Below are positions 17,925 to 48,986 of a stretch of 64,000 nucleotides of DNA, piece after piece (within the stretch, counting starts at the first letter, position 1; each line of letters starts with the position of its first letter). The stretch covers positions 7,904,001-7,968,000 of the forward strand of contig OZ245006.1 in NCBI GenBank assembly GCA_965223545.1, written 5' to 3'. A program made the position numbers and the translations under genes. The DNA comes from Planctomycetota bacterium. GTDB taxonomy: Bacteria; Planctomycetota; UBA1135; UBA2386. A model generated the notes under the pieces. It saw nothing but the letters and a program-made list of their open reading frames with translations, had not been told where the DNA came from and did not search any database.

Positions 17925-17999
17925 TTCCGGATGGTGTAATTGGTAGCACGAGAGATTCTGGTTCTCTTAGTCAAGGTTCGAGTCCTTGTCCGGAAACCA
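17925..17999 (+). tRNA. tRNA-Gln (anticodon CTG)
   Basis: Cloverleaf: ttccgga/tccggaa acceptor, agaga-ttCTGgt-tctct anticodon arm, GGTTCGAGTCC, encoded CCA. Confidence 0.95.
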
Positions 18000-18032
18000 C
18001 TCCTTCGCGCCGGGGCGATCGCGCCCGGGTGT

Positions 18033-18104
18033 AGCCCGGTAGTGTAATCGGTAGCACAGCAGCTTTTGGTGCTGCTTGTCCAGGTTCGAGTCCTGGCCGG
18101 GTTA
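18033..18104 (+). tRNA. tRNA-Gln (anticodon TTG), no encoded CCA
   Basis: agcccgg/ccgggtt acceptor, gcagc-ttTTGgt-gctgc anticodon arm, ccagg-ttcgagt-cctgg T arm. Confidence 0.93.
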
Positions 18105-18345
18105 TTACCTCTTGGCCTTTGGTGGCAAGGAGTTACGGCGGTGGGCTAATGCCTGGGGAGCCGAGGGGGGAGCCGGCGTGGCACCCGAGAGGCGGTGGAG
18201 ACCGCCGCCATGGTCCTTAAAGAGGGACGCCCCCACAGCCGGCAAGCAAGAGGGGGCGAACGGATCTACGGACGCCGCGGAGAACCGCGACGTCCGGCAG
18301 GGCGGCCGGCAGCCCGACGCAAGCGTCCGCCACTCGGGGGTCGCG

Positions 18346-18936
18346 ATGACCGCCACCCCTCGCCTCGACGCGGCTGCGCATCGCCGCCGCGTGAGCTGGA
18401 TCCCGCTGCCGCTCGGAGATCGGCACTTGGCCGGTGAGCTACTCGCGCTTGTGCGGGCGGGTGTGCCTGTGTCGGCGTCGCCAACAAGCTGCGCGCGCCG
18501 TCTGGGTGTCTCGGTCTCGACCGCGGATCGTGCAATCCGAGCTGCGGAGATCGACCACCTACTCGTGCGCGACGGCGGGCAGCTCTCGCCAGGCCCTGAG
18601 TGGTCTCGCTGGTGGAGCGATCGTCACTCGGCAGCGCTGCCGCACCTGGTGCGGGCGAGGGGCGCCCAGGCGACCGAGGAGGTGCTCATTCTACTGCTGC
18701 ACCTCGGCTCCGCCGCTGCGAGGTCCGTCGGCGCGGCGCTGGTCTGGAGGCTGCGGAGGCTGCTCGCCGGTGGGCTCGACTTGGCGCTTCTCGAGGGCGA
18801 AGCGCCGTCGCTCGACGGTGCGTGCGCACGGCTGCAGACGGTTTGGGAGCGCGAGGCGCGCCCGAATAGGGGTAAGCTCTTAGTCCGTTTTGACGGAGGC
18901 AAACGGTCGAATGCACGATCCCAGCGACAAGTATGA
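18346..18936 (+). CDS. Helix-turn-helix protein (phage/MGE-like), possibly a remnant
   Basis: SPTSCARRLGVSVSTADRAIRAAE HTH pattern; lies inside the att-bounded segment. Confidence 0.45.
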   Translation: MTATPRLDAAAHRRRVSWIPLPLGDRHLAGELLALVRAGVPVSASPTSCARRLGVSVSTADRAIRAAEIDHLLVRDGGQLSPGPEWSRWWSDRHSAALPHLVRARGAQATEEVLILLLHLGSAAARSVGAALVWRLRRLLAGGLDLALLEGEAPSLDGACARLQTVWEREARPNRGKLLVRFDGGKRSNARSQRQV

Positions 18937-19059
18937 CCCCGACTTCGAGAGCCTCGAGGAGAGCCAGCTTCCTAAGCGGTGCAGTGCCCGAGGCGATGGA
19001 GTGCGAGGAGTAGCGACGAATTGTCGTATTTGCCTCCTCTTGAGTCCGGCTCATGCACC

Positions 19060-19542
19060 ATGAAGCCGTTCTTGGAACTGCTTCTTCTCTATGTCAAGTT
19101 GGCACGGGCGATTGCCATCGGCTACCACATACTCCCAACGATTTTCAACATATGGTGCACGTCGTGGCAGGCAGGGGAGGGCGTGATCATGATCGGCGTA
19201 GTGACACAGATCGCGATCTTGGCGTCCACACTCGCAATTGTCGTCTCGATCGGCCAATTGCGCTGGGAAGTGCGAATCACATGGGTGAGTCTGGCGGTGG
19301 TTCTCGTGTGGGTTGGAGCCGCTGGCGAGTTCTTGTGGGGCAGTCGTCCCCCGCGACCCGGAGAGTCGGTGCGATCAATCAGTCACCGGATGGAACATCG
19401 GGGTGCGGCTCTAGGGCGGGAGGGCGACGCCCGGACTAAGTTCCTGGATACATGTTTCGGTCACCTTGTACTGTACTATGTGTCCTCTGAGGGCGGAGTC
19501 GTGCGCAACGTATACGCGGTACCGGACTATGCGCTGAAATGA
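19060..19542 (+). CDS. Hypothetical membrane protein (island cargo)
   Basis: Two hydrophobic segments and atypical codon usage; start uncertain (19060 or 19189). Confidence 0.4.
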   Translation: MKPFLELLLLYVKLARAIAIGYHILPTIFNIWCTSWQAGEGVIMIGVVTQIAILASTLAIVVSIGQLRWEVRITWVSLAVVLVWVGAAGEFLWGSRPPRPGESVRSISHRMEHRGAALGREGDARTKFLDTCFGHLVLYYVSSEGGVVRNVYAVPDYALK

Positions 19543-21052
19543 TTCGGACCAGTACGCAAATCAGACGCGGCCCTCTCAGACTAGGACGCTTGGAGACGAC
19601 TATGGACTATGACGCACGATACCAAAAAGTAGACCGGGGCGGGTTCGAGTCCTGGCCGGGTTATTACCTCAAGCCAGCAAGCTGTGAGTGGGTTGGGGTG
19701 GCGTCCTCAGAGTCGGGTGCAGAGCCGGAGGCTGGTAGAGTGCCCAGTCCCATGGCGCAGGTGAGGAGCGACGTCCGGTGACACTCTTTCGGGCTTTTCT
19801 CTCTGTCTCGTTGGATGGATACCTCGCCGACGAGGACGGCAGTGTCGGCTGGCTCGATGCCTACATGACGTCCGAAGTCGACTTCGCTGGGTTCGACGCA
19901 GCGATTGGGGCGGTCGTGATGGGACGCACGACGTTCGAGTGGTCACGCAAACACGGACTCGAAAGGCTTGGGGGGTGTGGATCCGCTATTGAGCAACTCG
20001 ATCATGCGGCCACCTTCACGGCGGTACGTCGGGTTTCGTGGAGCTTGTGCATCGCTTGATCCCAACGGTCGCTGAGCGGCAGAGCACGCAGGCGGAGGAC
20101 GTGTTCGCCGGTCGTCGACTTCCAGCGCGATCCGGCGCGTTTCATACGCACGGCCACGAGTGTCTTGCAGGTGGCCTCGACAGCTCCGCTGCCAATTGGC
20201 AGACCAAGGCGCAGCGATCTGGCGAACCGCATGCGCTCGGCGTGGTTTTCGAAATAGGTGATGGCCTCATGGACGGGCCGCTTCGAGTCCCGCCAAGTAT
20301 CCTCGAGGCCGGAACCGCGCAGTTCGGCGCGGATCTCTTCGGCTGCGCTGTTCGCGCAGCGCAATCGAACGCGCCAACGGTGCAACTCCGACTTGGCGCC
20401 GTCTGCACCGAAGATCACCTCGGCGGCCGGCGCCAGCTTCTCGACCACGTGCCAGAAGTCGATGCCTTGCTCGACGTTGCCGAACACCGCGGCGGGGAAG
20501 TGAGTGTGGAGCAGGTTGCACATCTCGTGGGCACCGTCGGACAGCAGCTTCACTCGCAGGTCCGGGCTCTTCTGCAACAGCCTGTACGCCTCGCCGGCGA
20601 TCTGAGCGAACCACAGGTCGACGTCGCTTTCCGGCATGCACCCGTACCGGAGCGTGTGCAGGCTCGCCCCTTCGGCGTCGTGCAAAGTGATCGTTGCGCA
20701 GTAGGCCATCCGGAAGTTCCGGTCTACGGGCCGCTTTGGCGCGTCCTTGCGCGGTCGGCCCGCCCGACGCTTCGCGGCCTCTTCCATCGGCACGGACACG
20801 CGGTCGACTGCCACGCTCATGGCGACGGCTTCCGCTGGCACGTCGAACTCCTGCGTGAGCATGTCCTCGATGTCCGCGTGTTCGCGAAGCCAGTGCTCGC
20901 CGACATGGTGCGCGACGCGCTCGAAGCTGGCCCGCGAATAGGGAAACCGACCTGTCTGGCGGGCAGCATCCGCCGCATCGCGCGACGGGCCGCGCGTAAG
21001 CGTCCGGTGAAGGCATCTCGAAAGCCGCTGGCGGATCGGCAGGATGCGGCGG

Positions 21053-21388
21053 ATGACGAAGAGAATCCCCGTGTGGGCTCGGGCGGAGATGCGCGAGCTG
21101 CTTCAAGAGCTGGACAACTCAGGCGTGACGGTCGCCGAGTTCGCGCGCCGGCGTGGAGTCAACGCAAACCGCATCTACTGGGCAAGGCGGCAAGCCCGAG
21201 CTGCGGCGGCGCCCACGTCCGCGCCGGCGGTGTCGGACTTCGGGGAGCTGGTGGTCGCTGCGGCCCCATCGCCGCGACGAGCAGCGGCCATTGAGTTGCG
21301 GGTGCCGTCGGGCGCGGTTGTCGATGTGCAGCGCGACTTCGACGAGGCGACGCTCCGACGGCTGCTCGGAGTCTTGCTGCCATGCTGA
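21053..21388 (+). CDS. tnpA: IS66 accessory protein TnpA (HTH)
   Basis: SGVTVAEFARRRGVNANRIYW HTH; first ORF of IS66; start 21044 or 21053. Confidence 0.85.
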   Translation: MTKRIPVWARAEMRELLQELDNSGVTVAEFARRRGVNANRIYWARRQARAAAAPTSAPAVSDFGELVVAAAPSPRRAAAIELRVPSGAVVDVQRDFDEATLRRLLGVLLPC

Positions 21389-21762
21389 GCTTTCCGCCCT
21401 CGCCGCAAGTCAAGATCTTCGTTTGCCGGAAGCCGGTGGACATGAGGAAGAGCTTCAGTGGTCTGTCCGGTGCGGTCATCGACGTGGTCGACCACGACCC
21501 GCAATCTGGTCACCTCTTCCTCTTCTTCAACAAGCGCCGGACCATGATGAAGGCACTGGTGTGGGAGCCGTCCGGTTACTGGGTGCTGGCGAAGCGACTG
21601 ACGAGCGGCCGCTTTCAGGTCTTCGATCGCTCGGCTGAGAACAACAGCCGATTCGAGATTGCGAGTAGCGATCTCGCGCTCTTGTTGGACGGCATCGACC
21701 TCCGTGGCGCGCGACGCAGAGAAGTTCGCGATCAGGTGCTGCAACGACTGGCCGTGACTTGA
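21382..21762 (+). CDS. tnpB: IS66 accessory protein TnpB
   Basis: PVDMRKSFSGL, LFLFFNKRR, KRLTSGRF, LLLDGID. Confidence 0.93.
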   Translation: MLSFPPSPQVKIFVCRKPVDMRKSFSGLSGAVIDVVDHDPQSGHLFLFFNKRRTMMKALVWEPSGYWVLAKRLTSGRFQVFDRSAENNSRFEIASSDLALLLDGIDLRGARRREVRDQVLQRLAVT

Positions 21763-21792
21763 TCCGTCTCCGGTTTGTGTTAATCAGAGGGA

Positions 21793-23346
21793 GTGACGCC
21801 GCTCACGGACCTCGACGAAGCCAACTCGACGATCGTCAAGCTGCGCGCCGAGATCGAGCGCCTTCGCGGGCAGCTCGAACTGATGAAGCAGCGCACGTTC
21901 GGACGGCGCCGCGAGCACATCAATCCGAACCAACTGCTGTTGTTCGAGGCCGGCGTCGCGCAGCTCGAAGAGCTGCAGAAGCAGGCGCAGGAAGCGGAGC
22001 AGTCGAGCGAACTCGCGAAGCCTGACCCGAAGAAGAAGCGGAAGCGCGGTCACGGTCGCGGTCAGTTCGCCGAGCACCTGGATCGGCATGTCGTCGAGGT
22101 CGACGTGCCGGAAGCGGAGCGCTGCTGCCCCGAGTGCGGCGAGGCCATGCACTGCATCGGGACTGACGTCACCGAGCGTGGCCACATCATCCCAGCGCGG
22201 TTGGTCGTGAAGCGCTACGTGCGCAACAAGTACGCGTGCCCGCACGGGCACAGGATGAAGATGGCGTCGATGCCTGCCGGCGTCGTCGAGAAGGCGAAGT
22301 ACGAGCCCTCCGTCTACGCGCATCTTGTCACAGCGAAGTACGGCGACCACCTGCCGCTGAACCGCCTGCAGGGGATCTTCCGCCGCTTCGGGGCGCACGT
22401 CCCGAAGCAGACCATGTGGGACATGCTGGCGCGCTTCGACGAGATCGCGGCGCGTCCGATCCTGGCCGAGATGCGGCGCCAGCTGCTTCAAGAAGATGTT
22501 CTTCAAGCCGACGAGACCCCGATCAGGGTGCGACTGGAAGGCCAGAAGGGCACCCGGCGCGGTGTGCTCTGGGCCTGGCGGAACGCTCGCGGCAGCCCCA
22601 ACGAGATGGTCGTGGCCGACTTCAGGGACAATCGATCCGCGAAGGGGCCCAACGCTTTTCTCGGCGCGTGGTCCGGGACATTGTTGACCGATGGCTACGA
22701 CGGTGTGAACCCGAAAGCGCAGCAGAACGCGATCACGCGGGCTGGCTGCTGGGCGCACGCCCGTCGGAAGTTTCGGGATGCGCTCACTGCTGGTGCATCA
22801 CGGGCTGGTTTGGCGCTGCGACCGATCCAGAGGCTTTTCTGGATCGAGCGCGCCGTACTGTCCCGAGCGAAGGATCGGAACCTGACCCGTGAAGCCCTCA
22901 TCGAACTGCGTGAGACCGTTCGTAGCCGCAGATCCAAAGCGGTGCTCCACAGCCTCTACGAGATCGTGTTCGGCCTCCAGGAGGATCCGGCGACCGCGGG
23001 CAACGAACTGCTTCGCAAGGCGGTGAGCTACGCCATCCGGCAGCGGGACCCGTTGCTCGCGCACCTCGACGACGGCCGGCTGCCGATCCACAACAACGAC
23101 ACCGAACGTGACCTGCGCCACGTCGTGACGGGCCGGAAGAACTGGATGACGCTCGCCAGCGAGAAGGGTGGCAACGTGGCAGCTCGCCTCTACTCGATCG
23201 TGCTCAGCTGCAAGCTGGCGAAGGTCAACGTCGAGCGCTACCTCGAGGACGTCTTGGTCGCTGTCGCCACCACGCCGTCGTCGCGCATCGCCGAACTCAC
23301 GCCCTGGGGCTGGGCGAAGGCACGCGCTGCCGGCCAGTCCTGCTGA
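21793..23346 (+). CDS. tnpC: IS66 DDE transposase TnpC
   Basis: FGRRRE, CPECG, HLPLNR, ADETP, TDGY, CWAHARRKF, NNDTERDLR, LTPW. Confidence 0.95.
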   Translation: MTPLTDLDEANSTIVKLRAEIERLRGQLELMKQRTFGRRREHINPNQLLLFEAGVAQLEELQKQAQEAEQSSELAKPDPKKKRKRGHGRGQFAEHLDRHVVEVDVPEAERCCPECGEAMHCIGTDVTERGHIIPARLVVKRYVRNKYACPHGHRMKMASMPAGVVEKAKYEPSVYAHLVTAKYGDHLPLNRLQGIFRRFGAHVPKQTMWDMLARFDEIAARPILAEMRRQLLQEDVLQADETPIRVRLEGQKGTRRGVLWAWRNARGSPNEMVVADFRDNRSAKGPNAFLGAWSGTLLTDGYDGVNPKAQQNAITRAGCWAHARRKFRDALTAGASRAGLALRPIQRLFWIERAVLSRAKDRNLTREALIELRETVRSRRSKAVLHSLYEIVFGLQEDPATAGNELLRKAVSYAIRQRDPLLAHLDDGRLPIHNNDTERDLRHVVTGRKNWMTLASEKGGNVAARLYSIVLSCKLAKVNVERYLEDVLVAVATTPSSRIAELTPWGWAKARAAGQSC

Positions 23347-24510
23347 GACGCGTCGGCGGTCGCTCTTCAACCGCTGGCCGCCATGGCGTCACCGGACGCT
23401 TACGGCCGCGCTGAATGTCGTTCGCCATGCACTGGGCGGTGAGAGGAAGCCAACCGCGGCCGTAGGCACCGGTTCGCAGCTTGATCGGGTCGAGGATCGG
23501 TCCGTTGCGCACGCCGACTTGGCGATAGACGGTGCGCTCGACTTTGACCTCGCCCGCCATCGTGAAGTACGTGCCCGGCGTGCGCCGGAAACTGGCGTAG
23601 AGAGCGCCTCGGACCCGGATCCGTGGCGCGTCGACGTCGAGGGCGCGAAGCACCTCCGCGTGCGCTGCCCGCTCGACCGCGGCGGTCTGCTTGGCGATCG
23701 CCCTCTCCGTGTCCGCGTAGTCCACCGCGTGACCGCCGCGGCTCGACTCCGCCGCCGCCACCGTTGCGTCGACCAGGCTCTGCATCGACTCGGCGAGCCC
23801 CTTGTGCTCAACTGGCACCTTCACGAGGACGTACCCTCGTGAAGCGCCCCTCCCAGGACGCTGGTGTTGCATCCTGTATCCGATAGGGAGGGGCGCATGC
23901 TTGTACAAGTGTCTTCTACACAAATACTTGCGGCGAGCCAGCCTGCGACCACCAGATCTCGGGTGCGATCACGCTGCTCCGCTCAATGCCGGAGCCACAC
24001 CCGGCTTGGGGCGAGGCGCAGTGTGGTGCTGACGCATCGTTCGCTCGGCGAAGTGCCAGCGAATGTCGAGGCGTTCGCCGGCGACGTGCGTGAGCTTGCG
24101 GCGTCTTTGCGAGCCGAGCTGGGAACCGAAGGCAAGGACGTCTGGCTGATGGGAGGAGGTCTGTCACTCCAGACGTTTCTGGATGCCGGCCTGGTGGACA
24201 CGCTCGAGCTGTACGTGGTGCCCGAATTGCTGGGTGCTGGCACTCCACTCTTTCCAACCGGTGGCGAACGCAGCTCTTGGAACTTGACGTCGATGCGCAG
24301 CCTGTCGAACGGGATGGTCGAAGTCATCTACTCGCGCCGAGAGTGAGCGCCGACGGGCACGCCGCTCTTGCTGGAAGCCTGCATGGAGCAGCGACGCCGA
24401 GCGACTCCGCCAACTGCTCGACCGTCGGGCTGGTTGACGTTTGACGCGGTCACGATCGATGGGGGACGATCGGGGTTGGAGCGAGCGGCTGCGGAGGAAC
24501 CCCACGCACT

Positions 24511-24831
24511 GTGTCCGATTCCAACGAGCAACCCAGGGGCCAGCAGACCGAGGGGCCGCATCCGATGTCTCGATGGCACTTGTTGTTCAGCTCGCCCATG
24601 TTGTGGCTCGGCCTGTTCATGATGATCGCGGGCGCGCTCCCCCTGCTGGTGGTCGGGGGCGTGGCGTGGCTGACGGGGGAGACCTCCGAGACGGCGGTCG
24701 GTCCGGGGTTCTTCCTCTGGTGCATGGGGTGCCCGGGCCTCATCGTCGCCGCCGCCGGGGTGATGCATGGCGTCTGCGAGTCGATCACGCGGCGGCCAGA
24801 ACCCGACGCCTCTGGTGAGGTCGGGCGATGA
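24511..24831 (+). CDS. Small hypothetical membrane protein
   Basis: Two TM segments; ATGA overlap with the next ORF. Confidence 0.55.
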   Translation: MSDSNEQPRGQQTEGPHPMSRWHLLFSSPMLWLGLFMMIAGALPLLVVGGVAWLTGETSETAVGPGFFLWCMGCPGLIVAAAGVMHGVCESITRRPEPDASGEVGR

Positions 24832-25022
24832 AGCCCGCGGATGCGTCGCTCTTCCTTGGAGGAATGCTGCTGGGAGCCGCACTCGGCGCGCTCGGCGCCT
24901 ACGGCCTTTGGGGCGGCTACGCGCTCTTCATGCCCGGGGTGTGGGTGACCGTGGCCGCGTGCGCCGGGCTGACGCCGTTCGTCTTGGCTTGGTTCGTGCA
25001 GGAGTACGAGAAACTGGAGTGA
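24828..25022 (+). CDS. Small hypothetical membrane protein
   Basis: 64 aa with two hydrophobic helices; translationally coupled to the previous ORF. Confidence 0.55.
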   Translation: MKPADASLFLGGMLLGAALGALGAYGLWGGYALFMPGVWVTVAACAGLTPFVLAWFVQEYEKLE

Positions 25023-25074: not shown

Positions 25075-25515
25075 ATGAAGCCTCTCGCCTACGCGGTGCT
25101 GGCCGGGGTCCTGCTCGCGGGCTGCGCCAGACAATCCACACCACGCGCGGATGACGATGTCGTCCCGGCGCTGACCCCGGAGACCTTCGACCAAGCCATC
25201 GCCCAGGGCGCCGTGCTGGTCGACTTCTGGGCCGATTGGTGACTGTTCTGCCAGCAGATGGTGCCGTTGGTATCATCGACTGCGCGGGACCTCGAGGGCG
25301 AGGTCCGCGTTTGCAAGGTCGACGCGGACACTTGGAAAGAGCTCGACGAGCGCTTCGATCTGCCGGGCTTCCCGACCTTCATCCTCTTTCGCGACGGTCG
25401 GGAAGTCGAACGGCACCCCGGCGCCTTCGACGACATCGGCGAGTTCCAGATGTGGATTCGCGAGGCGCTGGAAGGCGACGACGAGGAAGCCGAGGACGAG
25501 GACTCCGGCTGGTAG
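25075..25515 (+). CDS. Selenocysteine-containing thioredoxin-fold lipoprotein (UxxC), in-frame TGA at 25240-25242
   Basis: MKPLAYAVLAGVLLAGC lipobox...ALTPETFDQAIAQGAVLVDFWADW-TGA-LFCQQMVP...KVDAD...PGFPTFILFRDG. The Trx fold is continuous across the TGA. Confidence 0.88.
25254..25284 (+). promoter_or_regulatory. Putative bacterial SECIS element
   Basis: Stem gatggtgcc/ggtatcatc closing a G-initiated loop (gtt) about 23 nt after the TGA; gcag/ctgc can extend the stem. Confidence 0.6.
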
Positions 25516-25546: not shown

Positions 25547-25993
25547 CTAGGGTCCGAACGACACCGATAGCCCGGCCGACAGCGCGAGGCCGCCGCTCTG
25601 GATCACGTCGACGCCCTGCAGGTGCAGGGTGACGCCCTGCAGCGAGGGCAGCGTCGGGTCGAACTCGATGTGGTACTCCCCCCCGCCGTCGAACTGACCC
25701 AGGATCGGCACGATGGGTGGGCCGACCAAGACCTCCGCGCAGCAGCCGAGCGGCAGCGCGGCGCGGTTGGCGGAGAACGCGACGATCGCGGGCTCGCCGG
25801 CGCCGCCGCCGACCAAGTCGATCGACGCGCTCTGCGGTCCGTGCTGCTGCGCCGACAGCACGAGGTTGGGGTCGACCATCGTGGCGAACAGGCCGCTGCG
25901 GCCATACGACTCCGAGGTCATGTTCTGGGCGTGCAGAGTGGTGGTGCAGATCGCCGCAGACAGAGCGGCGGCCGAGAGTGCTCGTAGCAGCAT
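25547..25993 (-). CDS. Secreted hypothetical protein
   Basis: Signal peptide ending LHA-Q, RBS (aaggag), beta-rich body. Confidence 0.7.
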   Translation of the reverse strand: MLLRALSAAALSAAICTTTLHAQNMTSESYGRSGLFATMVDPNLVLSAQQHGPQSASIDLVGGGAGEPAIVAFSANRAALPLGCCAEVLVGPPIVPILGQFDGGGEYHIEFDPTLPSLQGVTLHLQGVDVIQSGGLALSAGLSVSFGP

Positions 25994-48887: not shown

Positions 48888-48986
48888 GGGAGCGGATCGG
48901 GGCTGGTGTCCTGCCTGGTCTTCAAAACCAGTGGGGGTCGCCCCAGAGGCGGTCTCGGTGGGTTCGATTCCCATGCGCTCCCGCCA
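48888..48986 (+). tRNA. selC: tRNA-Sec (anticodon TCA)
   Basis: 99 nt; 8-nt acceptor strands; 6-bp D stem with 4-nt loop; ctggt-cTTCAaa-accag; long variable arm; gtggg-ttcgatt-cccat; G73 + CCA. Confidence 0.95.

What the first reader, a model, noticed from the sequence alone, without database searches (positions are those of the whole stretch)
25075..25515. Hidden selenoprotein: lipid-anchored thioredoxin with a UxxC active site and SECIS-like hairpin
Seen: the frame from ATG 25075 encodes a lipoprotein signal (LLAG-C) and a thioredoxin N-terminus (LVDFWADW). TGA (25240-42) then sits exactly where the attacking Cys of WCxxC belongs, followed by LFC and the rest of the fold, including the cis-Pro loop (GFPT), and an acidic tail. 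A 9-bp stem with a G-led loop lies about 23 nt downstream. Known: bacterial SECIS elements lie immediately 3' of the UGA, and UxxC replaces CxxC in Trx-fold selenoproteins. Inference: an exported, membrane-tethered Sec-thioredoxin with an unusual LF dipeptide, behind two small membrane-protein genes in an accessory region. Standard callers split it; the ORF track shows only the 85-aa tail.
Basis: partly seen in the sequence, partly recalled or inferred. Interest (0 to 1): 0.85.

Follow-up and report, generated by a model that had tools for sequence, protein, structure and literature searches.

The report
Membrane-anchored selenocysteine thioredoxin gene
An apparent stop codon sits exactly where thioredoxins have their active-site cysteine and is very likely read as selenocysteine, giving a predicted membrane-anchored, exported redox enzyme that likely keeps cell-envelope proteins reduced; this is a sound but fairly ordinary addition to a known class of bacterial selenoproteins.

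Summary
Confirmed. Window 25075-25515 is one 146-codon frame: lipoprotein-type signal, classical thioredoxin domain, acidic tail, and an in-frame TGA (25240-42) at the attacking Cys (W-U-L-F-C). Contigs from two studies carry the TGA. The genome has selA, selB, selC (in this window) and selD. Six of 12 W-[C/stop]-x-x-C motifs have TGA; none has TAA or TAG. The hairpin meets all four bSECIS criteria. It uses two of the gene's three rarest codons, and only 0.5% of synonymous recodings fold as well. Two relatives (62-68% identical) are called from the same Met after the TGA position and keep the hairpin-encoded MVPLVSS; their DNA could not be seen. Sec read-through is about 93% likely. Best mechanism (inferred): an envelope dithiol reductase fed by the genome's DsbD, possibly serving lipoprotein-like MsrA/MsrB. 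UxxC thioredoxins are a known, verified selenoprotein family, and this scan has already noted exported UxxC thioredoxin-like lipoproteins in other genomes. What is particular here is a rare three-sequence lineage, a dipeptide without proline and a lipid anchor. The upstream membrane genes show no conserved link. Interest is modest.

The parts
25075..25515 (+). Full coding sequence, 146 aa when TGA56 is read as Sec
   Evidence: Both halves have genome-typical codon scores (0.22 and 0.30; training median 0.21); the in-frame DNA upstream of the ATG scores -0.55
25075..25125 (+). Predicted lipoprotein signal peptide (MK, hydrophobic core, lipobox L-A-G|C); Cys17 at 25123-25125 is the predicted lipid-bearing residue
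   Evidence: Sequence; lipobox pattern; Lgt and LspA in the genome. Processing is inferred
25165..25476 (+). Classical thioredoxin domain (residues about 31-134), with no TlpA-type insertion
   Evidence: PF00085 82.4 bits; AlphaFold2 mean pLDDT 81.6; Foldseek to E. coli Trx 2trx_A rmsd 1.2 A over 104 columns
25240..25242 (+). In-frame TGA at the attacking position of W-U-L-F-C; inferred selenocysteine codon
25249..25251 (+). Cys59, predicted resolving cysteine
   Evidence: Alignment with thioredoxins
25257..25277 (+). bSECIS-like upper hairpin: 9-bp stem, GUU loop at +24 to +26; encodes M-V-P-L-V-S-S; can extend into a lower stem 25245-25290
   Evidence: criteria from PMC13188914 Fig. 2 legend
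25282..25310 (+). Second stable hairpin (AGGG loop); competes with the lower SECIS stem; role unclear
   Evidence: z -3.2 against shuffles, but 4.3% of synonymous recodings fold as well
25366..25377 (+). cis-Pro loop G-F-P-T (Phe99-Pro100)
25471..25512 (+). Acidic C-terminal tail, also present in both relatives
   Evidence: lower pLDDT
24565..24831 (+). Upstream 88-aa two-helix membrane ORF; contains W-C-M-G-C, which is not conserved
   Evidence: Coding score 0.14; 2 homologues among 300 other genomes, neither with CxxC nor a neighbouring thioredoxin
24828..25022 (+). Upstream 64-aa hydrophobic ORF overlapping the previous stop (ATGA)
   Evidence: Coding score 0.28; no family above a cut-off
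48888..48986 (+). selC, tRNA-Sec (UCA anticodon), 24 kb downstream in the same window
   Evidence: RF01852 74.2 bits, gathering score 47; ARAGORN

Best explanation
The TGA lies at the attacking-cysteine position of an intact thioredoxin frame and is very likely decoded as selenocysteine through the hairpin 23 nt downstream, giving one 146-aa protein that is predicted to be exported and lipid-anchored at Cys17 and that likely works as a dithiol reductase in the cell envelope. Proposed cycle: the Sec56 selenolate attacks a substrate disulfide; Cys59 resolves the mixed bond to a selenenyl-sulfide; the genome's three-domain DsbD re-reduces it with electrons from cytoplasmic thioredoxin. The substrates I favour are the genome's MsrA and MsrB, which have lipoprotein-like N-termini, as in the pneumococcal CcdA-Etrx-MsrAB2 path. 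Shown: frame, codon, fold-level match, Sec machinery, predicted hairpin and its codon bias. Inferred: Sec insertion (about 0.93), export and lipidation (about 0.9), reducing rather than oxidising role (about 0.75), DsbD as donor (about 0.65). Msr as the substrate is a guess (about 0.3) and is not counted in the confidence below.
For: Machinery: selA 464 bits, selB 318, selD 346 (itself with an in-frame TGA), tRNA-Sec 74 bits, all over cut-off. Genome pattern: 6 of 12 W-[C/stop]-x-x-C motifs carry TGA, 6 carry TGY, 0 carry TAA/TAG; stop-x-x-C occurs at 20 of 360 TGA against 5 of 482 TAG with coding-like flanks. Hairpin: meets the four bSECIS criteria. GTA and TCA (2% synonymous use each) form its 3' arm; 0.5% of 5000 synonymous recodings fold as stably and 2.4% reach a 9-bp stem. 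Relatives: P0003 and P0074 both begin at Met62 and keep MVPLVSS, 7 of 7 columns invariant against 45 of 85 overall; 0 of 28 Cys-thioredoxins have Ser at either of the last two positions. Reducing role: the thioredoxin core residues D50, W52, W55, P64, P100, T101, G108 align. E. coli Trx with Phe before the cis-Pro keeps a near wild-type potential (PMC2665069, passage). The genome has DsbD with DsbD_N, DsbD_TM and a TGA-x-x-C thioredoxin-like end, and no DsbB or VKOR was found. Lgt and LspA are present. PMSR and SelR proteins have lipobox-like N-termini, read by eye. Precedents: PMC3914529 (abstract), PMC3322552 (passages).
Against: There is no expression or protein evidence. The relatives' DNA was not obtainable, so a conserved TGA and covarying base pairs were not seen; the shared Met62 start is indirect. 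No orthologue was found in 90 family, 338 class or 400 phylum genomes, so there is no conserved gene context pointing to a partner. The dipeptide lacks the Pro found in 28 of 28 compared thioredoxins, and dipeptide swaps can shift the potential towards oxidising (PMC2665069). The bSECIS criteria alone are met by 43% of random TGAs here. About 11 other TGA-x-x-C thioredoxin-fold candidates, most with hydrophobic N-termini, could serve the same substrates. The genome is 91% complete, so a missing DsbB or VKOR is not proven. A gene 1.2 kb upstream is broken by IS elements.
Confidence: 0.66

Rival explanations
1. It is a real exported selenoprotein, but it works as a disulfide isomerase or oxidase in envelope protein folding (PDI-like or DsbC-like), not as a terminal reductant.
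For: Non-Pro dipeptide. GFPT/GYPT loop and acidic tail resemble eukaryotic PDI domains, which score well (TXNDC5 domain 57 bits; TIGR01126 59 bits). No DsbB or VKOR was found, so an unknown oxidative route may exist.
Against: Single domain with no dimerisation or helical insert. The best single-domain sequence and fold matches are ordinary thioredoxins. In a quick tree it falls with bacterial thioredoxins, not PDIs (SH-aLRT 94, below the 95 mark). A hydrophobic residue before the cis-Pro is reducing.
Confidence: 0.15
2. It is a real exported selenoprotein whose U-x-x-C site acts on small molecules (peroxide, polysulfide, selenite) or binds soft metals, rather than exchanging protein disulfides.
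For: The lineage is long-branched (1.05 changes per column) with a bulky LF dipeptide. A periplasmic selenoenzyme for polysulfide is known (bioRxiv 10.1101/2025.11.18.688581, passages).
Against: The protein-substrate features of thioredoxin (W55, cis-Pro loop, G-A near residue 116) are kept. No peroxiredoxin, glutathione-peroxidase or metal-binding family was hit.
Confidence: 0.1
3. It is a nonsense pseudogene: a TGC/TGT codon mutated to TGA in a decaying region next to IS elements.
For: A RibD_C-family gene 1.2 kb upstream is split by nested ISKra4 and IS66 elements. The gene is absent from all relatives searched. Cys-to-TGA needs one base change.
Against: Both halves are intact with normal codon usage. 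Two relatives at 62-68% identity are called from the same Met. Rare codons build the hairpin. Five other W-TGA-x-x-C motifs and no TAA/TAG occur in a genome with full Sec machinery. The same TGA is in a second study's contig.
Confidence: 0.04
4. TGA ends a 55-aa lipopeptide, and an 85-aa protein is made separately from ATG 25258, or TGA is read as Trp or Cys.
For: Gene callers make this split. A sigma-70-like match overlaps 25248-25276.
Against: The split cuts the fold at its active site. The promoter-like match overlaps the ATG it would have to precede. TGA is the main stop codon (1910 of 2495 long ORFs). The tRNA with a UCA anticodon is the Sec type.
Confidence: 0.03

Closest known systems
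Bacterial Sec-thioredoxin, PF00085, UxxC (listed as experimentally verified in Table 1 of PMC13188914, representative WP_010956703.1; that this is the Treponema denticola protein is recalled)
   Same: Same Pfam family, Sec at the attacking position, in-frame hairpin just after the UGA.
   Different: This protein has a lipoprotein-type signal, a dipeptide without Pro and an acidic tail. I did not compare it with WP_010956703.1 directly. It scores below the TIGR01068 equivalog cut-off (75.4 against 96.8).
Streptococcus pneumoniae Etrx1/Etrx2 surface thioredoxin lipoproteins in the CcdA-Etrx-MsrAB2 pathway (PMC3914529, abstract and outline read)
   Same: Thioredoxin-fold lipoprotein outside the cytoplasm; a membrane electron transporter and Msr proteins with export-like N-termini exist in this genome too.
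   Different: Sec is inferred here. No ccdA or msr gene lies next to this gene. The transporter here is a three-domain DsbD. That Etrx proteins are Cys-only and of the TlpA/ResA type is recalled.
Caulobacter ScsB-TlpA-PprX envelope reducing pathway and Neisseria periplasmic Msr (PMC3322552, passages read)
   Same: An exported thioredoxin-like protein relays electrons from a DsbD-family transporter to envelope antioxidant enzymes.
   Different: This protein is a classical thioredoxin by profile and fold: TlpA/DsbE/ResA models give only 16-20 bits. The link to DsbD is untested.
Predicted UxxC selenoproteins 'thiol:disulfide interchange protein' (PF13098), 'thiol-disulfide isomerase-like' and 'UGC-containing TlpA' (cd02966), 'redoxin' (PF08534), Table 1 of PMC13188914
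   Same: Thioredoxin fold with UxxC; several such genes occur elsewhere in this genome.
   Different: PF13098 gives 25.7 bits, below its cut-off of 27, and PF08534 was not hit. The only NCBIfam selenoprotein model hit is TsoB at 16.6 bits against a cut-off of 805.

Membership tests
Bacterial selenoprotein (UGA recoded to Sec) | In-frame UGA aligned to a catalytic Cys of homologues | tested here: met
Bacterial selenoprotein (UGA recoded to Sec) | selA, selB, selC and selD in the genome | tested here: met
   all over cut-off
Bacterial selenoprotein (UGA recoded to Sec) | bSECIS: 3-9 nt loop, 4-16 bp stem, G in the first two loop positions, 16-37 nt spacing, MFE at or below -7.5 kcal/mol | tested here: met
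   Loop GUU, 9 bp, 23 nt, -15.8 kcal/mol; criteria. The criteria alone are loose (172 of 400 random TGAs pass)
Bacterial selenoprotein (UGA recoded to Sec) | UGA and hairpin conserved in orthologues at DNA level | tested here: inconclusive
   Only protein sequences of the two relatives were available; the same Met62 start and invariant MVPLVSS are indirect. No locus found
Bacterial selenoprotein (UGA recoded to Sec) | Selenium shown in the product | not testable with these tools
   Needs 75Se labelling or MS
Thioredoxin family PF00085 | Profile score above the gathering cut-off | tested here: met
   82.4 against 23.5 bits
Thioredoxin family PF00085 | Thioredoxin fold with W-C/U-x-x-C at the start of a helix and a cis-Pro loop | tested here: met
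   Predicted model matches 2trx_A at rmsd 1.2 A; the cis geometry itself was not checked
Housekeeping thioredoxin TrxA/TrxC (TIGR01068, NF006898, NF008229) | Score above the equivalog cut-off; Pro-containing dipeptide; no export signal | tested here: not met
   75.4/96.8, 52.3/138 and 72.8/125 bits; ULFC motif; N-terminal signal. The genome has separate WCGPC thioredoxins
TlpA/DsbE(CcmG)/ResA redoxins | Score above family cut-off; inserted strand-helix segment | tested here: not met
   16-20 bits against cut-offs of 123-230; the model has the plain thioredoxin topology
Bacterial lipoprotein | Positive N-terminus, hydrophobic core, lipobox [LVI][ASTVIG][GAS]C (pattern recalled) | tested here: met
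   MKPLAYAVLAGVLLAG|C; Lgt and LspA present
Bacterial lipoprotein | Lipidation and membrane location shown | not testable with these tools
   Needs palmitate labelling, globomycin sensitivity or fractionation
Etrx-type or DsbD-fed envelope reductant | Reduced by CcdA/DsbD and reduces Msr or peroxiredoxin | not testable with these tools
   Partners exist in the genome but are not adjacent; no assay

The most novel reading that the evidence does not exclude
This protein is the last relay of a selenium-to-selenium reducing chain in the planctomycete envelope: a Sec-bearing DsbD passes electrons to a lipid-anchored, classical Sec-thioredoxin that regenerates membrane-anchored MsrA/MsrB. It founds a rare subfamily in which the SECIS hairpin has rewritten helix 2 (Val-Ser-Ser where the compared thioredoxins never have Ser) and the active-site Pro is lost.
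Probability: 0.22. Interest if true: 0.6.

Novelty: new member of a known kind. Interest (0 to 1): 0.34.

Why it matters
It corrects an annotation: two short database proteins are very likely one selenoenzyme. It adds to the picture of a likely planctomycete that has moved much of its envelope redox machinery to selenocysteine (about 12 thioredoxin-fold TGA-x-x-C candidates by my reading, including DsbD). Neither review of prokaryotic selenoproteins that I searched mentions planctomycetes. The gene is also a small, clean test case for how an in-frame SECIS constrains the protein it encodes. On its own it opens no new mechanism: Sec-thioredoxins and exported bacterial selenoproteins are both known.

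Tried and rejected
1) The upstream 88-aa membrane protein as a mini-DsbB/VKOR partner, because of W-C-M-G-C at the start of its second helix. Rejected: its two homologues (L067, L068; 2 of 300 other genomes) lack the CxxC and have no thioredoxin nearby; the atlas gave only unnamed clusters under 0.9.
2) Loci of close relatives. Genome contigs: none with P0001, one weak 25-residue hit with A2. Metagenome contigs: 23 loci at 34-46% identity, all weak (E 4e-9 or worse), not used. Viral contigs: none. Whole genomes: 60 relatives gave only generic thioredoxins at 44% or less; 0 of 90 family and 0 of 400 phylum genomes; 4 of 338 class genomes gave weak hits that are WCGPC TrxC-like proteins. The N-terminal 55 aa found only itself among 2 candidates.
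3) Expression: no RNA holder listed; this is no evidence either way. Five of the eight runs laid (X5, X7-X10) do not cover the codon.
4) The second hairpin as a second SECIS: not supported beyond 4.3% in the synonymous test; a similar D/E-L-A-G-x-V stretch occurs in Cys-type TrxC proteins.
5) Eukaryotic PDI origin: not supported by the quick tree; the careful tree did not finish.
6) Location inside a tRNA-integrated island: the att-like repeat closes at about 19661, 5.4 kb upstream.
7) No complex prediction was run. The sources of P0003/P0074 stayed unknown, and the primary paper on Sec-thioredoxin (PMC5094351) was not held.

Full report
Observation. The frame from ATG 25075 to TAG 25515 holds one internal TGA at codon 56. 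Read through, it gives MKPLAYAVLAGVLLAG|C, a short linker, a thioredoxin domain with W-A-D-W-U-L-F-C and G-F-P-T, and an acidic tail. It scores 82.4 bits on PF00085 (cut-off 23.5). An AlphaFold2 model from an 8-row alignment has mean pLDDT 81.6 and matches E. coli thioredoxin 2trx_A at rmsd 1.2 A. Both halves have genome-typical codon scores (0.22, 0.30; training median 0.21), and the frame upstream of the ATG does not (-0.55).

Is the TGA real? Of 8 runs laid, 3 cover the codon, all without differences. X1 and X4 belong to study P1 and may be the source of the assembly. X6, from study P3, is one 283-nt contig at depth 3.8. No RNA holder was listed, so expression is untested.

Can the organism decode Sec? 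Yes by gene content: selA (464 bits), selB (318), selD (346, with its own in-frame TGA) and tRNA-Sec (74 bits; window 48888-48986). TGA is otherwise the main stop (1910 of 2495 long ORFs). Of 14 PF00085 matches in the genome, 5 hold one TGA. A motif scan found 12 W-[C/stop]-x-x-C sites: 6 TGA, 6 TGY, no TAA/TAG. A homology-free scan found stop-x-x-C at 20 of 360 TGA and 5 of 482 TAG codons with coding-like flanks. Four of the 20 are copies of one repeated sequence; about 12 look like thioredoxin-fold sites by my reading. Nine PSCyt1 matches fit the Planctomycetota label given in earlier scan notes; I did not place the genome otherwise.

The hairpin. Bases 25257-25277 form a 9-bp stem with a GUU loop 23 nt after the UGA, pair probability 0.82-0.83 in context. 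This meets the four bSECIS criteria in PMC13188914. The criteria are loose in this genome: 172 of 400 random TGAs pass my version, as do 2 of 6 Cys codons, while 1 of 6 TGA motifs fails; only 11 of 400 reach 9 bp. The stronger test is codon choice. The 3' arm is made of GTA and TCA, each 2% of synonymous use and two of the three rarest codons in the gene. Of 5000 synonymous recodings 0.5% fold as stably and 2.4% reach the same stem length. A second hairpin (25282-25310) is stable against shuffles (0 of 200) but is matched by 4.3% of recodings, so I do not count it.

Relatives. Only two close ones were found: P0003 and P0074, 68% and 62% identical over their length. Both are called from the Met that lies six codons after the TGA position, as this genome's own 85-aa fragment is. 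That is what a shared stop codon upstream would cause, but their DNA was out of reach, and a contig end is not excluded. The hairpin-encoded MVPLVSS is invariant in all three (7 of 7 columns; 45 of 85 overall). Met and Pro are common thioredoxin residues there, but 0 of 28 Cys-thioredoxins (23 from loci, 5 protein hits) have Ser at either of the last two positions. All 28 have Pro as the second dipeptide residue; this protein has Phe. The relatives' dipeptide is unknown. In a quick tree of 60 rows (23 locus domains, the best 30 of 149 representative hits, 4 of 5 protein hits with P0006 left out, and the trio), the trio forms a long-branched clade (99) among bacterial thioredoxins (94, below the 95 mark); the careful search did not finish. 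No orthologue appeared in 60 relatives, 90 family, 338 class or 400 phylum genomes (the sets overlap and many genomes are incomplete), nor in contig scans.

Surroundings. Two small membrane ORFs precede the gene on the same strand (24565-24831, 24828-25022; ATGA overlap), then a 52-nt gap. Both look coding. The first has a CxxC that its two homologues lack, and neither homologue lies next to a thioredoxin. Further upstream, a RibD_C-family gene is split by an ISKra4-like element that itself carries an IS66. The 3' end of tRNA-Gln is repeated at 19642, which bounds a 1.6-kb islet that does not include this gene. So the gene is lineage-restricted and near mobile DNA, but not shown to be on an island.

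How it likely works. Export and lipidation are inferred from the lipobox and from Lgt and LspA. Among 12 TGA-x-x-C candidates screened at their first three Met starts, my lipobox pattern fired on 2: this gene and a non-thioredoxin protein. A reducing role is inferred from the thioredoxin core residues and from Phe before the cis-Pro, which leaves E. coli thioredoxin at -257 to -270 mV (PMC2665069; the values are in its supplement, which I did not read). It also fits the genome: one three-domain DsbD with a TGA-x-x-C C-terminal domain, and no DsbB or VKOR found in a 91% complete assembly. One PMSR and one of two MsrB-motif proteins begin with lipobox-like sequences, read by eye. Exported thioredoxin-like relays to Msr or peroxiredoxin are known (PMC3914529; PMC3322552). 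No gene linkage ties this protein to them, and other exported candidates exist, so the substrate is a guess. The missing Pro leaves an isomerase or oxidase role open.

Comparison with what is known. UxxC thioredoxin (PF00085) is listed as experimentally verified. A periplasmic bacterial selenoenzyme with a cleaved signal peptide has been shown. The protein falls below the TrxA/TrxC equivalog cut-offs and far below TlpA/DsbE/ResA, and no NCBIfam selenoprotein model fits. Searches listed no paper on a lipid-anchored Sec-thioredoxin or on this lineage; I judged from listings, and the library lacks most subscription journals. The scan's own notes hold 67 findings with these words in at least 66 genomes, so the type is common in this scan.

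Papers seen: PMC13188914 (abstract, passages, part 1 of 3 of section 7 with most of Table 1); PMC2665069, PMC3322552, PMC1794560, PMC9312934 and bioRxiv 10.1101/2025.11.18.688581 (passages); PMC3914529 (abstract and outline); others as listings only. No supplements were read; supplementary lists of predicted selenoproteins could already contain this gene.

Verdict. Observation confirmed, interpretation supported. Sec read-through about 0.93; the full mechanism (exported, DsbD-fed reductant) about 0.66. New member of a known kind, interest 0.34.

Noticed in passing
window 48888-48986 (+): The genome's tRNA-Sec gene (selC) lies in this window, apart from selA/selD (C1:1.264-1.266 Mb) and selB (C1:7.665 Mb).
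   Followed up: yes
window 19778-24346: A RibD_C/DHFR-like gene is split by an ISKra4-like element (about 20002-23923, minus strand), which is itself interrupted by a three-gene IS66 with inverted repeats near 20995 and 23404: a nested insertion.
   Followed up: partly
window 17925-19661: Tandem tRNA-Gln genes (CTG, TTG). The last 20 nt before the 3' end of the second recur at 19642, bounding a 1.6-kb islet, partly low in GC, with ORFs that hit no Pfam or NCBIfam family.
   Followed up: partly
G000:C1:4306331-4308259 (-), locus L075: Three-domain DsbD whose C-terminal thioredoxin-like domain has T-TGA-V-N-C with a 10-bp hairpin (GGAA loop, 20 nt).
   Followed up: partly
G000:C1:3109222 (-) L073 and C1:3398867 (+) L074: MsrA (PF01625) and MsrB (PF01641) with lipoprotein-like N-termini; a second protein with the MsrB motif at C1:4230105 has no such signal.
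   Followed up: partly
G000:C1:2778174 and 2778552 (+): Two adjacent thioredoxin-like domains about 380 nt apart, the first with W-TGA-G-A-C and the second with W-C-H-A-C: a Sec/Cys pair.
   Followed up: no
G000:C1:1338116, 3116011, 3529969, 3793782, 4468926, 4588495, 4702574, 5051261, 5604750, 6226245, 6556018, 6727831, 7238172, 7383758: Further TGA codons in UxxC or CxxU contexts with coding-like flanks; several were noted earlier by the scan.
   Followed up: partly
window 25248-25276 (+): A sigma-70-like match (CTGCCA-17-TATCAT with TG) overlaps the SECIS stem; probably a by-product of the A+T-rich arm.
   Followed up: no
window 25312-25314: A third cysteine (Cys80, V-C-K-V-D) is invariant in all three family members; its role was not examined.
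   Followed up: no
window 25021 and 24624: Short contigs from different studies begin matching at the same bases (X6 and X7 at 25021; X7 and X10 at 24624). Unexplained; it slightly weakens the independence of those runs.
   Followed up: no
window 25547-25993 (-): A 148-aa ORF with a signal-like N-terminus converges on the thioredoxin gene across a 31-nt gap; no family hit, and no terminator-like site by the scan.
   Followed up: no
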